Shown here piece by piece: positions 20,369-26,504 of a DNA stretch of 64,000 nucleotides; within the stretch, counting starts at the first letter, position 1, and the number at the start of each line of letters is the position of its first letter. Origin of the DNA: a virus (taxonomy: Duplodnaviria > Caudoviricetes); IMG/VR virus record IMGVR_UViG_3300035208_003134, positions 1 to 64,000 of that record. One strand, written 5' to 3'. Under the pieces are notes generated by a model. It searched no databases, was not told where the DNA came from, and saw nothing but the letters and a program-made list of their open reading frames with translations. Made by a program: the position numbers and the translations under genes.

Positions 20369-20875
20369 CTACCTATAATTGCCTGTAAGCAACTTTTGTA
20401 CTTTTCTAAAGGTTTTTCTACTTATTAAGGCTTTGTGTGTATTTCTTTTTATTACCCACCTACTCTTAGGAGAAAGCCGGTTGCTTTGCCCTAACCTTCT
20501 ATTTCCTCGTCTCCCCCAAACAGTATCACCAACATATACAGGGTTCATAAGTATTTGCCTAACTGTATGATGAGACCAACGTTTTCCTCTTGTAGTACGC
20601 AACCTTAACTTATTTAGTCGTGTTGCAGTCCTACAAGTATTGCCTTCCTTTAAAAATATTTTGAATAACCTCTTAACCGTCTTCTTATAATAACAATCAA
20701 TTTCTAACTGCACACCTTTGTACTTGTATCCTATTGGTGCGATAGCTCCTATCCTCACTTTTCCTACTCGTTTAGCCAACCCTGCTCTGGTATTCTCACT
20801 AAGGTGGGCTGCGTTGCGAGCGTGGGCTATGATAGCTCGCAAGGTTTGGAAAAAATTTTTAATTTGTAATATCAT
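20369..20875 (-). CDS. stand-alone recombinase DNA-binding domain (large serine recombinase family; no catalytic domain)
   Basis: APIGY..VKRLF..LN..TTRGKRWSHHTVRQILMNPVYVG..THKALIS motifs. Confidence 0.8.
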   Translation of the reverse strand: MILQIKNFFQTLRAIIAHARNAAHLSENTRAGLAKRVGKVRIGAIAPIGYKYKGVQLEIDCYYKKTVKRLFKIFLKEGNTCRTATRLNKLRLRTTRGKRWSHHTVRQILMNPVYVGDTVWGRRGNRRLGQSNRLSPKSRWVIKRNTHKALISRKTFRKVQKLLTGNYR

Positions 20876-21674: not shown

Positions 21675-24365
21675 TTAATTCATATTGTAATAAATGCCTT
21701 CTGCAATTCTCCACCTGTTAGTCTCAATATCAGTTAAGGTAAAGGTCTCACCTTCAACGTCAATGCGAGCTCCGAGGTCAATACCGCCAACTTTACCTAC
21801 GGGCTCACCCTTCTCGGTGTCCGGAGCAGTAGGTACGGCTGTTGGGATGAGCTCTACTGTGAAGCTCTCTTTACCCTTAAGTTCTTCTGTGACTGGTTCA
21901 TCCACTGGTGAGCTTGCCCTTCCCTCTACATTGCCTCTCTTGTGAGAAAGGAACTCTACGCCGTTTTCAAGGCTTACCCTGTAAGGTTGGTCTTCCAAGT
22001 GAATGCCAAACTCACGGTCGGCGCGGAACTTCTCAAGTATGATGTTGAAGCCCTGTTCACGGAGCAAGCAACCTTGGCAGTTGGTGGTCTCAAACTTCAA
22101 GCTTATTTGACGGTGGAGCATTTCCTTAAATGAAGTAAAATAAACATCGCCTACCCTGACAGCCGGTCGCTCGTTTATGGGCTGTCCGGCGTAATCACAG
22201 AGGTGGAACACGCCGTAAGGGTTCATATTAGCTTTAATTACTTTCATTTCACAATATTTGGCTTGCTCCAAGTCCGGCAGGGCTTGCTTCCCACCCTCAA
22301 GTTCTTCCCTTGAAAGAGCCCTGATGTCCACATTCATTTTACCGTATTTGCCCGAAGCTATGTTAGCTCTCAAGGTCTCAATAGTGGTAAGTATAGTCTC
22401 AATCTCTTCGGGCGTGTATTTCCTGACCATACCTGCGATGTCGGAGTTGAAGGCTATAAAGTCAACGCCCATTTCCTTGGCGTTATCAGCGGCCTGAAGG
22501 ATTTCTTGGTAGTTCCAAGGATTGACGAGGAAGCTTACACCTATGCTTAAGGATGAACCTTCCCTATTCCTTAAGGTTACAAACGCGCGTACGTTGTTCC
22601 TTACTCTGTCAAAGAAATCAGCCCTTATGCCTTGCACTGTATGGTAAGTCTCTGGAGTAGCGGCGTTAATGCTAATCCTAACCCACTTTGCACCGAGCAA
22701 CTTGGGCTGAAATTCAGGTATAAGGTTAATCCCGTTGGTATAGAGCTTCACGAGCAACCCTCTATCCGTGGCGTACTTAATGACATCAGCCGTGGTTGGG
22801 TTGGTGAAGGGCTCTTTACCACCGGAGACCCAAAACTCTTTGACGTCATTGTCTGCCCATTCGTCAATCAACTGCTTGGACTTTTCAATTTCAATTAGCC
22901 CTCTTTTTCCTTTATCCGCATACTGCAGACCCTTGTTGTAGCAGAACACGCAGTCGGAGTTGCAAGTTTCTCCTGGGTGCCATTCAACTATAATAGGATA
23001 AGTTAGCTGATTATTGAACGCGCGCTCCAACCTTTCAGAATATTTAAGTAAATATTTGGTGGTGTACTCAACGAGCCTTGAGTACCGGCTCTCTTCGGTC
23101 ACGACTTCTTGTAGGGTCGGTGAGTCCTTGATTACACGGTAGATTTCCCTTAATTCGGTCACATTTACACCTACCCTATTAGCCAAGTCCTTGGACTTGT
23201 GGTCTGGTCTTGAGTAGAGCTGATGAACGATTTCAAGGCAGGGGGTTTCTAATCTGGGTGTAAGCCTCAAGCCTTCCTCTTTGAGTATTGCTCTCAATAC
23301 CCCAAGTGCCTCATTTTGCCTTGAGACCAGATAATTGTAGGAAGTGTCGCTGAAGATGTTCACGAGCTTACGGGCTTGCTCTACATTGCCTACGAGCCCT
23401 CGTTCGTTTACTCCTATCGGGCTTGAGGCTCTGTCGGCTCGCTTGACTTCAATCCATTTTCTCGGCTCTTCAAAGCTTACGCCACCCCAAGTCCTGTTAG
23501 TCCGGTCTTTATAGTCGTGCTCTTTGAAGCTAATTAGGTACTTGTCCCAAATGTTGTATTTCATATTAGAGTCGGCAATTTCAAATGAGCCGACCTTGTT
23601 TGAGTTTATGCTCCAATGGTAAATGGTGTTAAGGAATTTATTCTTAAACCAAATACCGCAGACTACTGCCCTAAAGATTTGGCGCGTCGGTGCGAAATGG
23701 GTGTCCTTTAATACATACTCTCTAACAGTCGGAAGTATAAACTTGTCGGCTCTCTCTTGAAAGCCAAAGACCCCTTCTTTAATCTTCTCTTGATTTACGC
23801 TTAGGTCGGCTTGCCTGATGTACATTTCTCTACCGCTATCTTCAATAAGGACTTTGTCGGGGACAATCCAAGACCGCATATTTGATGAGAGCCTTATGTC
23901 CTTACCGTAGAGGTCTATCATATTCCAAAATTTTTCTCCGGACTCACTTGCAGGGTGAAAAGCTGTTGCTGTGGCGTGCTTAAGGAGCAAGTCCTGCTCA
24001 AGCATTACCCTGCCAAGCTCTGTCCTTCCTAAATAAAAAGGGGCAATCCGGTTGCGTTCGTCGTCTCTTAGGTTGACCCAAAGGTCTTTTTCCGGTACTA
24101 CAACTGCCGTCAAGAAGCTGTCAACCATAAGCCTCTTTTCCTTTTCGGTCATTATCCCATTGGTGTAAAAGGTCACGGTGTTGGGGGGTATCACTCTGAC
24201 GCCCACTATGCTTACTTCCTGCGCGAGTTCAATAGGCGGAAGCAGGTTGTTAACTTCCTTTTCTGTGTTCAGCTTGTCAAAGATAACCGGCAATGAAATA
24301 GCCAAAGCCAAGAACAAGCAACCAATGAGGATTATTTTTCCGGTAGTTAGGTGTTTTCTACTCAT
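21675..24365 (-). CDS. membrane-anchored multidomain protein with a radical SAM (DesII-like) cargo domain
   Basis: N-terminal TM; CxxxCxxC (CNSDCVFC), SGGKEP, YTNG, RISINAA, SPASM/Twitch-type Cys; RASSP x2; C-terminal GGIDL. Confidence 0.8.
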   Translation of the reverse strand: MSRKHLTTGKIILIGCLFLALAISLPVIFDKLNTEKEVNNLLPPIELAQEVSIVGVRVIPPNTVTFYTNGIMTEKEKRLMVDSFLTAVVVPEKDLWVNLRDDERNRIAPFYLGRTELGRVMLEQDLLLKHATATAFHPASESGEKFWNMIDLYGKDIRLSSNMRSWIVPDKVLIEDSGREMYIRQADLSVNQEKIKEGVFGFQERADKFILPTVREYVLKDTHFAPTRQIFRAVVCGIWFKNKFLNTIYHWSINSNKVGSFEIADSNMKYNIWDKYLISFKEHDYKDRTNRTWGGVSFEEPRKWIEVKRADRASSPIGVNERGLVGNVEQARKLVNIFSDTSYNYLVSRQNEALGVLRAILKEEGLRLTPRLETPCLEIVHQLYSRPDHKSKDLANRVGVNVTELREIYRVIKDSPTLQEVVTEESRYSRLVEYTTKYLLKYSERLERAFNNQLTYPIIVEWHPGETCNSDCVFCYNKGLQYADKGKRGLIEIEKSKQLIDEWADNDVKEFWVSGGKEPFTNPTTADVIKYATDRGLLVKLYTNGINLIPEFQPKLLGAKWVRISINAATPETYHTVQGIRADFFDRVRNNVRAFVTLRNREGSSLSIGVSFLVNPWNYQEILQAADNAKEMGVDFIAFNSDIAGMVRKYTPEEIETILTTIETLRANIASGKYGKMNVDIRALSREELEGGKQALPDLEQAKYCEMKVIKANMNPYGVFHLCDYAGQPINERPAVRVGDVYFTSFKEMLHRQISLKFETTNCQGCLLREQGFNIILEKFRADREFGIHLEDQPYRVSLENGVEFLSHKRGNVEGRASSPVDEPVTEELKGKESFTVELIPTAVPTAPDTEKGEPVGKVGGIDLGARIDVEGETFTLTDIETNRWRIAEGIYYNMN

Positions 24366-26093: not shown

Positions 26094-26504
26094 TTACCCC
26101 TTAGTTGCCATTTTAACTTCTCTTTTCCTAAATTCGTCTCCGCGCTTCTCAACTATGTCCCCAACTTGGAAGAAGTCGGCTACACGAGCCAATTCCTTGG
26201 CGTCTTCTTCTGCTATATCAGCAACCTTAATCTTAATCCCCACATCGCCCCAACCGGCTTTAATCAGGCTATCTTGAATTTTGGCGATTAAGTCCGAGAC
26301 TGTGATAGGCAAGTCCACGACCTTAAAAGTGGTGGTTGCTTTGTGGCTCTCTAACCCTGCAAGTGCACGCCTACATCCACAATTACCATCAACCTCTTCT
26401 CCGTCACATTCAGTACCAAACCCAACAAGTTCACCCTCGTTGCAAAAGCCGAAGTCGTTCTTGCGATAACCCTGTGTCTCTTTGGTAGCTACGAATACTC
26501 TCAT
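26094..26504 (-). CDS. conserved phage hypothetical (Cys-containing)
   Basis: VATKETQG.RKNDF..EGELV..C..CGCRR pattern. Confidence 0.6.
   Translation of the reverse strand: MRVFVATKETQGYRKNDFGFCNEGELVGFGTECDGEEVDGNCGCRRALAGLESHKATTTFKVVDLPITVSDLIAKIQDSLIKAGWGDVGIKIKVADIAEEDAKELARVADFFQVGDIVEKRGDEFRKREVKMATKG

What the first reader, a model, noticed from the sequence alone, without database searches (positions are those of the whole stretch)
21675..24365. Phage mini-version of an Omnitrophota-type giant protein: radical SAM cargo bracketed by RASSP motifs
Seen: N-terminal TM, then a ~250-aa domain (PEKDLWVNL..RI..LGRTELGRVMLEQDLLLK..GEKFW..WIVP..), then RASSP (about 23418-23432), a radical SAM/SPASM domain, a second RASSP (about 21906-21920) and a C-terminal KVGGIDL. 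The radical SAM segment (YP..HPG.TC...C..C; SGG.EP.TNP) resembles DesII-type sugar-modifying enzymes. From memory, this N-terminal domain, SSP-type linkers and the GGID tail are typical of very large Ca. Omnitrophota proteins. Inference: the host is Omnitrophota, and the phage uses a host export/polyprotein scaffold in which RASSP marks cleavage or domain boundaries releasing an enzyme cargo, possibly into the host's own prey or partner cell. A cytoplasmic Fe-S enzyme behind a membrane anchor is itself odd.
Basis: partly seen in the sequence, partly recalled or inferred. Interest (0 to 1): 0.8.

Follow-up and report, generated by a model that had tools for sequence, protein, structure and literature searches.

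The report
Phage copy of Omnitrophota modular protein
A 98-kb phage carries a well-conserved gene for a small, chimeric member of a huge, unnamed family of exported modular proteins of Candidatus Omnitrophota, with a DesII-like radical SAM enzyme inserted between the family's N-terminal domain and its GGIDL tail; this points to the host and gives a simple entry into a family that fills up to about a tenth of those genomes.

Summary
ORF 21675-24365 (-) encodes 896 aa: one N-terminal hydrophobic helix, a ~270-aa domain, RASSP, a radical SAM module, a second RASSP, and a tail with GGIDL. The N-domain has no Pfam or NCBIfam model. It matches 6,790 cluster representatives, nearly all labelled Omnitrophota, with 13-78 copies per genome and very varied middle domains. 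GGIDL lies 27-115 residues from the C-terminus in 153 of 256 relatives.

The phage protein is a chimera. Its N-domain and tail belong to a cargo-less lipoprotein subfamily (51-53% identity over the whole short form, nested in the tree). Its 480-aa cargo matches the cargo of other Omnitrophota members (43-56%). The closest solved relative of the cargo is DesII, but it is not a DesII orthologue.

Both RASSP motifs sit exactly at the homology breaks, in predicted disordered linkers. All three N-domain-bearing cellular orthologues have similar motifs at both cargo borders.

A sister phage keeps the gene under strong purifying selection (dN/dS 0.07). An Omnitrophota host is well supported. Cleavage at RASSP, export of the enzyme into another cell, a sugar substrate and a SPASM domain are not shown. 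The scaffold fold matches nothing solved.

The parts
21675..24365 (-). Whole ORF, 896 aa (P0001)
   Evidence: dN/dS is 0.068 against the sister phage copy L002:10001-12691.
24279..24335 (-). N-terminal hydrophobic helix (aa 11-29), a predicted signal anchor or uncleaved signal peptide
   Evidence: Kyte-Doolittle 2.87, the only such segment, with 3 basic residues before it. The closest relatives carry a lipobox here.
23433..24233 (-). Conserved N-domain of the Omnitrophota family (about aa 45-311)
   Evidence: 6,790 representatives at E<=1e-3. No Pfam or NCBIfam model. AF2 pLDDT is mostly 80-95. No solved fold was found.
23418..23432 (-). First RASSP (aa 312-316), in linker 1
   Evidence: Lies between the end of short-form homology and the start of cargo homology. 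pLDDT is below 50 for aa 311-324.
21948..23387 (-). Cargo cassette (about aa 327-806): helical N-extension, radical SAM core, Cys-bearing C-terminal part
   Evidence: 43-56% identity to the cargo of P0266, P0267, P0268 and P0269. DesII is the best solved relative.
22389..22976 (-). Pfam Radical_SAM core (aa 464-659), with CX3CX2C at nt 22941-22964
22068..22253 (-). Four invariant Cys (705, 723, 763, 766), a possible auxiliary Fe-S site
   Evidence: Invariant in all 6 cassette homologues. Pfam SPASM was not detected.
21906..21920 (-). Second RASSP (aa 816-820), in linker 2
   Evidence: Lies between the end of cargo homology and the start of tail homology. pLDDT is below 50 for aa 799-825.
21678..21881 (-). 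C-terminal tail of the short-form type (aa 829-896), with GGIDL at nt 21774-21788
   Evidence: Aligns with the tails of the cargo-less relatives. In the short-form model the tail has pLDDT 86-94 and the whole model has pTM 0.84.
21924..21936 (.). Copy 1 of a perfect 13-nt direct repeat at the cargo border
23379..23391 (.). Copy 2 of the 13-nt direct repeat, 1455 nt (485 codons) from copy 1 and in the same frame

Best explanation
This is a functional phage gene taken from an Omnitrophota host. It encodes a compact, chimeric member of a very large, so far unnamed family of exported modular proteins. The frame of the protein consists of an N-terminal signal anchor, an N-domain of about 270 aa, and a short GGIDL tail. 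That frame is the one found in the family's cargo-less lipoprotein subfamily. A DesII-like radical SAM cassette of about 480 aa sits in the loop between the N-domain and the tail. The closest relatives of this cassette are the cargo of other Omnitrophota family members. It is joined on both sides by short disordered linkers that carry RASSP. Proposed working (inferred): the N-terminal helix sends the protein to the Sec pathway and the envelope, as for its host paralogues. The N-domain and tail fold together into one unit that supplies the localisation or assembly function shared by the whole family. The cargo hangs out as an inserted domain and performs the same radical reaction as the host's own orthologue. 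The phage keeps the gene as an auxiliary (moron) gene, to add or replace that host envelope function during infection. RASSP is best read as a family-specific linker motif; whether it is also a processing site is open.
For: The gene is real and under selection. A sister phage contig carries it in synteny at 90% nucleotide identity, with dN/dS 0.068 at dS 0.49, and the value is similar for the N-domain (0.076) and the cargo (0.058).

Family and host. The N-domain hits 6,790 representatives (6,210 at E<=1e-10), always near the N-terminus of proteins of 291-4,553 aa. Of 30 taxon-bearing names, 28 are Omnitrophota. In one genome per GTDB species, 590 of 600 pattern hits are relatives, and 69 of the 80 best loci are labelled Omnitrophota. 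Five genomes hold 13-78 copies each.

Tail. GGID[LFM] lies 27-115 residues from the C-terminus in 153 of 256 relatives.

Chimera. The scaffold is 51-53% identical to the short forms P0261-P0264. The cargo is 43-56% identical to P0266-P0269, whose own N-domains are only about 30% identical to the phage's and whose tails are of the long type or of another type. In the tree, the phage N-domain nests inside the short-form clade (100/100) and apart from the rSAM-group N-domains.

Export. There is one N-terminal hydrophobic helix with positive charge before it. Eight of the nine closest short forms carry a lipobox.

One unit. The AF2 model of the cargo-less P0122 has pLDDT 82.5 and pTM 0.84, with a confident tail.

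Linkers. Both RASSP motifs lie in segments with pLDDT below 50, at the homology breaks. [AS]SSP[IV] is about 19-fold over expectation in the family (17 observed against 0.9 expected) and lies mostly just after the N-domain or just before GGID.

Accessory position. The gene lies in a minus-strand cluster of small ORFs between the tail and replication modules.
Against: A radical SAM enzyme needs cytoplasmic Fe-S assembly, SAM and a reductant. An exported location therefore leaves its activity unexplained. The same paradox applies to the kinase, methyltransferase, GNAT and other cargo of the family, and has been noted for long Omnitrophota proteins (bioRxiv 10.64898/2026.06.07.730766).

Co-folding of the N-domain and tail is shown only by a model of a relative; the whole-protein model has pTM 0.45.

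The host assignment rests on this one gene family. No spacer match or other link was obtained.

The reaction is unknown: the TIGR04426 score is 102.7 against a cut-off of 450, and the loci of the cellular orthologues hold no deoxysugar genes.

The scaffold fold has no solved relative: best Foldseek E 0.085, best VIA Z 3.2.
Confidence: 0.6

Rival explanations
1. Membrane-tethered cytoplasmic enzyme. The N-terminal helix only anchors the protein, the bulk faces the cytoplasm, and the radical SAM module works there on a host metabolite or envelope precursor during infection.
For: Radical SAM chemistry needs cytoplasmic cofactors (established knowledge). The catalytic motifs are intact and under purifying selection. 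Most of the family's cargo is of cytoplasmic enzyme types.
Against: The charge distribution puts the N-terminus inside: +3 before the helix and a net negative stretch after it, with family means of +1.8 and -0.14. The closest relatives carry lipoboxes, and typical members carry signal-peptide-like N-termini. There is no second membrane segment.
Confidence: 0.22
2. The protein is a polyprotein or delivery scaffold that is cut at the two RASSP motifs, releasing the enzyme, possibly into a prey or partner cell of the Omnitrophota host.
For: The SSP motifs sit exactly at both cargo borders in this protein and in three cellular orthologues. SSP[IV] is enriched in the family's linkers, and one 2,232-aa member has eight copies. 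Exported cytoplasmic-type enzymes would make sense inside another cell. Omnitrophota are proposed predators or parasites (PMC10066038).
Against: There is no evidence of cleavage and no protease was identified. Only 21 of 263 sampled members carry SSP[IV], so the motif cannot be a general release signal. If the N-domain and tail fold as one unit, cutting both linkers would leave a nicked scaffold, which has no obvious purpose.
Confidence: 0.12
3. Virion or adsorption accessory protein. The family scaffold is used by the phage as part of, or next to, its tail apparatus to deal with the host's surface coat.
For: Another IMG/VR contig (L087) has an N-domain plus HEAT protein two genes after a tail J-like gene.
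Against: In this phage the gene lies on the opposite strand, among small accessory ORFs and about 4 kb from the end of the tail module. It has no PHROG structural hit. An N-terminal membrane helix is unusual for a virion protein.
Confidence: 0.05

Closest known systems
DesII (dTDP-4-amino-4,6-dideoxy-D-glucose ammonia-lyase; TIGR04426; PDB 8HZV/8HZY)
   Same: DesII is the best sequence and fold match of the cargo. It shares the radical SAM core with CX3CX2C and the helical N-extension before the core. Foldseek aligns about 490 columns, nearly the whole DesII chain.
   Different: Sequence identity is only 20-22%. The NCBIfam score is far under the equivalog cut-off (102.7 against 450), and the profile match stops at position 332 of 468. 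Four invariant downstream Cys suggest an extra cluster. The cargo is embedded in an exported scaffold. The cellular orthologues have no deoxysugar genes next to them.
Long and giant multi-domain proteins of Omnitrophota (bioRxiv 10.1101/2023.11.21.568195; 10.64898/2026.06.07.730766; PMC10066038)
   Same: Same phylum. They share signal peptides or membrane helices ahead of cytoplasmic-type enzyme domains (methyltransferase, HATPase, GNAT, starch synthase, receiver, radical SAM), and the same repertoire is seen as cargo here.
   Different: In the passages I searched, those papers describe domain content and topology but not a shared N-domain or a GGIDL tail. The proteins found here are 0.3-5.4 kaa, not above 10 kaa. 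This one is phage-encoded and has a single cargo.
Polymorphic effector architectures with a conserved trafficking domain and variable cargo (for example TPS-domain/CdiA proteins, MuF-toxin fusions of phages)
   Same: The logic is the same: a signal peptide, a conserved module of about 250 aa, a highly variable enzymatic payload, and many paralogues per genome.
   Different: No sequence or fold similarity was found. The payloads here are mostly not toxins. The cargo is bracketed by a conserved tail as well. No partner transporter is known. The resemblance is from general knowledge only and was not tested.
C-terminal sorting domains (T9SS CTD, PEP-CTERM and the like)
   Same: A conserved C-terminal module of about 40-70 aa on many otherwise unrelated exported proteins of one phylum.
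   Different: No match to any Pfam or NCBIfam model. There is no terminal membrane helix. In the short-form model the tail packs on the N-domain rather than standing alone.

Membership tests
Radical SAM superfamily (PF04055) | Pfam score above the gathering cut-off | tested here: met
   55 bits against a cut-off of 29.5, aa 464-659
Radical SAM superfamily (PF04055) | CX3CX2C cluster motif | tested here: met
   C468, C472 and C475, conserved in all cassette homologues
DesII equivalog (TIGR04426) | Score at or above the curated cut-off of 450 bits | tested here: not met
   102.7 bits, and only profile positions 36-332 of 468 are matched
DesII equivalog (TIGR04426) | Overall fold like solved DesII | tested here: met
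   Foldseek 8hzv: E 5e-14, about 490 columns, TM (by target) 0.45. The next family (SuiB) is at 7e-8.
DesII equivalog (TIGR04426) | Deoxysugar pathway genes in the neighbourhood | tested here: not met
   None next to the phage gene or next to the cellular orthologues
SPASM/twitch radical SAM | Pfam SPASM (PF13186) match | tested here: not met
   Not listed at E<=1
SPASM/twitch radical SAM | Conserved Cys able to bind an auxiliary cluster | tested here: inconclusive
   Four invariant Cys at 705, 723, 763 and 766; cluster binding was not testable
Omnitrophota N-domain/GGIDL-tail family (unnamed) | Homologous N-domain right after an N-terminal hydrophobic segment | tested here: met
   E-values of 1e-27 to 1e-82 to members. 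202 of 263 sampled members have the N-terminal segment.
Omnitrophota N-domain/GGIDL-tail family (unnamed) | C-terminal GGID[LFM] module | tested here: met
   Present at aa 860, of the short-form type
Omnitrophota N-domain/GGIDL-tail family (unnamed) | Variable cargo between the N-domain and the tail | tested here: met
   Radical SAM cassette at aa 327-806. Other members carry GNAT, epimerase, methyltransferase, ankyrin, HEAT, receiver, HATPase and other domains.
Polyprotein processed at SSP | Cleavage at the motif | not testable with these tools
   Needs proteomics or in vitro processing

The most novel reading that the evidence does not exclude
The N-domain plus GGIDL tail is a previously undescribed export or display device of Omnitrophota. 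It carries cytoplasmic-type enzymes, looped out between SSP linkers, to the cell surface or into other cells. Phages of Omnitrophota have captured it and re-loaded it by cassette exchange to deliver an enzyme of their own choosing.
Probability: 0.15. Interest if true: 0.9.

Novelty: new variant of a known kind. Interest (0 to 1): 0.68.

Why it matters
Omnitrophota devote a large share of small genomes to long exported proteins that carry enzymes with no obvious business outside the cytoplasm, and nobody knows how these proteins work. This work defines a shared frame for a large subset of them: an N-domain and a GGIDL tail, with no Pfam or NCBIfam model and no solved fold, in thousands of clusters and tens of copies per genome.

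The phage gene is the simplest loaded example: one frame, one cargo, two short linkers, 896 aa, and clearly under selection. That makes the open questions experimentally approachable in a single clonable protein: topology, processing at SSP, whether the cargo is active, and what the frame binds.

It also gives a gene-based host link for a complete 98-kb phage of a phylum with no cultured phage-host system. It further shows domain-cassette shuffling between paralogues.

Tried and rejected
- Fold identification of the scaffold failed. Foldseek against PDB gave a best E of 0.085 (MakB/MakE/NheA, TM about 0.1). VIA-align wide gave a best Z of 3.2, with BPI/PLUNC-type chains at Z 2.9-3.1, which are leads only. 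BFVD gave one weak row, a Tupanvirus J-domain protein (E 6e-3, TM 0.33).
- The ESM Atlas gave no feature hit for the phage N-domain. For P0011 it gave a structural TM of 0.54 to Planctomycete DUF1598-bearing proteins. PF07643 found nothing above noise in five Omnitrophota genomes, so that lead is unsupported.
- The search for related loci on alignment A1 failed because no conserved stretch was found. On A2 it found no relatives, because the patterns were too specific to the short forms. A3 worked.
So there was no test of expression, of cargo-less variants or of binding.
- The RASSP pair is not a DNA repeat: the two copies differ at synonymous sites.
- There is no homology between the phage's flanking small ORFs and the small ORFs of the host loci.
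- The search of earlier findings returned nothing.
- GenBank phages hold no N-domain relative, only radical SAM matches.
- I considered contamination of a bin by a cellular contig and rejected it: the record is a complete phage, and a second phage contig carries the gene in synteny.
Full report
**What is there.** The window belongs to an IMG/VR virus record of 97,890 bp that is rated complete. It encodes a tape measure protein, a DNA polymerase, a ribonucleotide reductase, SbcCD and a DnaB-type helicase. ORF 21675-24365 on the minus strand gives 896 aa. It lies in a minus-strand cluster of mostly small, unannotated ORFs between the tail genes and the replication genes.

The protein has one hydrophobic segment, aa 11-29, with three basic residues before it and an acidic stretch after it. 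Pfam finds only Radical_SAM (aa 464-659, 55 bits).

**The cargo.** The best NCBIfam model is the DesII equivalog TIGR04426 (1.9e-29). At 102.7 bits it is far below the cut-off of 450, and it covers only profile positions 36-332 of 468. DesII is also the best solved sequence relative (1.5e-18). It is the best Foldseek match of the AlphaFold model too: E 5e-14 over about 490 columns, against 7e-8 for the next family.

The cassette has the CX3CX2C motif and four further Cys that are invariant in all six homologues. Pfam SPASM is not detected. The cargo is therefore a DesII-like radical SAM enzyme of unknown substrate, not a DesII orthologue.

**The frame.** The N-domain has no Pfam or NCBIfam model. 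An exhaustive phmmer search of 1.84 billion representatives gave 6,790 hits at E<=1e-3 and 6,210 at E<=1e-10. The domain always starts near the N-terminus, in proteins of 291 to 4,553 aa.

In the word-indexed search, 28 of the 30 names that carry a taxon are Omnitrophota or Omnitrophica. The downstream Pfam domains are extremely varied: GNAT, epimerase, methyltransferase, ankyrin, HEAT, receiver, HATPase, PEP-utilising, NUDIX, glycosyltransferase, Zeta toxin, GGDEF and radical SAM.

In one genome per GTDB species, 590 of 600 pattern hits encode relatives. Of the 80 best loci, 69 are labelled Omnitrophota, 9 'uncultured Planctomycetales' (automatic labels), 1 Elulimicrobium and 1 Peribacteria. 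Five genomes of 1.9-3.7 Mb hold 13, 40, 39, 78 and 37 copies, in open frames of up to 5,384 aa.

GGID[LFM] lies 27-115 residues (mostly 50-96) from the C-terminus in 153 of 256 relatives. In typical members it opens a well-conserved module of about 60 aa.

**A chimera.** The closest N-domain relatives (47% identity for P0122, 51-53% over the whole short form for P0261-P0264) are proteins of 350-390 aa that have the N-domain followed directly by a short tail of the same type as the phage's. Most start with a lipobox. They are chromosomal Omnitrophota genes.

The cargo instead matches P0266 (56%), P0267 (48%), P0268 (47%) and P0269 (43%). P0266 and P0268 have N-domains that are only about 30% identical to the phage's, and they have the long tail type. 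P0269 has a signal peptide and the cassette but no N-domain, and it has a different C-terminus.

A maximum-likelihood tree of N-domains places the phage pair inside the short-form clade (100/100), sister to P0261-P0264 (90/95). The N-domains of the radical SAM group lie elsewhere. In one MAG (L006), a short form and the 1,036-aa radical SAM form lie two genes apart.

The alignment shows that the phage protein equals a short form with about 510 aa inserted between the last N-domain strands and the first tail strand.

**The SSP motifs.** The two RASSP motifs fall in the 14-aa and 22-aa gaps between the homology blocks. They also fall in the two AlphaFold segments with pLDDT below 50, aa 311-324 and aa 799-825. 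The two copies differ at synonymous sites, so they are kept at the protein level.

The three N-domain-bearing cellular orthologues carry SSSP, SSP or ASP motifs at both cargo borders. Across 263 sampled family members, SSP[IV] occurs 35 times against 6.7 expected, and [AS]SSP[IV] occurs 17 times against 0.9 expected. Most copies lie 10-95 aa after the N-domain or 4-34 aa before GGID. One 2,232-aa protein has eight copies. Only 21 of the 263 proteins have the motif.

It is therefore a real, recurrent linker motif of part of the family. Cleavage at it is not shown.

**The fold.** The AlphaFold model of the cargo-less P0122 has mean pLDDT 82.5 and pTM 0.84. The tail has pLDDT 86-94, which implies that the tail packs on the N-domain. 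The strands just before and just after the insertion point are predicted in both models. No solved structure matches. The complex predictor that could have tested this in the phage protein itself was closed.

**Selection and spread.** A second phage contig (L002) carries the gene in synteny at 90% nucleotide identity. dN/dS is 0.068 at dS 0.49, and it is alike for the N-domain and the cargo. IMG/VR holds only three other contigs with an N-domain gene; one of them sits next to a tail J-like gene. GenBank phages hold none.

**Reading.** The family membership, the chimeric build, the boundary position of RASSP and the Omnitrophota link are shown. Export is predicted from sequence. That the frame acts as a localisation or assembly unit, and that the phage uses the gene as an auxiliary envelope function, are inferences.

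The central puzzle is how an Fe-S, SAM-dependent enzyme could work outside the cytoplasm. It is shared with the whole family and has been noted in the literature on long Omnitrophota proteins. It remains unsolved. It keeps alive both the cytoplasmic-anchor rival and the delivery-to-another-cell idea.

Noticed in passing
window 21924-21936 and 23379-23391: This is the longest perfect direct repeat in the gene (13 nt). It sits at both cargo borders, 1455 nt apart and in the same codon phase. Recombination between the copies would remove 485 codons in frame and leave a cargo-less form. Only 6.9% of codon-shuffled genes have any 13-mer repeat. In the sister phage one copy has a mismatch. It may be a footprint of cassette insertion, or it may be chance.
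   Followed up: partly
window 21675-21944 against L002:12420-12691: The last 270 nt or so of the gene are 98-99% identical between the two phages, against 81-95% (mostly 86-93%) in 150-nt windows over the rest of the gene (dS 0.04-0.07 against 0.5-0.6). This is probably a recombination mosaic boundary. Other shared blocks of the two phages range from 80 to 98% identity.
   Followed up: partly
P0269, P0271, P0272 (proteins): A second kind of Omnitrophota frame: a signal peptide, cargo (radical SAM, methyltransferase) and a different conserved C-terminus ending in small residues (..TAA..ISA), with no N-domain. The same radical SAM cassette occurs in this frame in P0269.
   Followed up: no
L004, L005, L006, L092, L093, L094: A conserved Omnitrophota locus: a 7TM-GAF histidine kinase, several response regulators, a small PP-binding carrier protein and an opposite-strand cupin. 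These are followed by a short-form lipoprotein and/or the radical SAM form, and often by a gene of more than 2,000 aa. No deoxysugar genes are present.
   Followed up: partly
L087:60-3674 and L087:7785-11444: Another viral contig (IMGVR_UViG_3300031576_000207) has a tail J-like protein, then a 701-aa ORF, then a 1,219-aa N-domain protein with HEAT repeats. So phage capture of this family is rare but has happened more than once.
   Followed up: partly
G003 and G005 (genomes of L028 and L010): MAGs labelled 'uncultured Planctomycetales' and 'Candidatus Elulimicrobium sp.' carry 39 and 37 N-domain genes, as many as labelled Omnitrophota genomes. The labels may be wrong, or the family may reach further than the phylum.
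   Followed up: no
window 20369-20875 (-): A 168-aa ORF holds only the 'Recombinase' domain of a serine recombinase (PF07508, 8.7e-24) and lacks the catalytic resolvase domain. It may be a remnant.
   Followed up: no
window 26094-26504 (-) and L002:7725-8129: A DUF7715 protein (5.9e-38) is conserved in both phages, in the same accessory cluster.
   Followed up: no
window 1-64000: ARAGORN found no tRNA genes. GC content is even at 41-48%, and the GC skew changes sign over the minus-strand cluster at about 18-28 kb.
   Followed up: no
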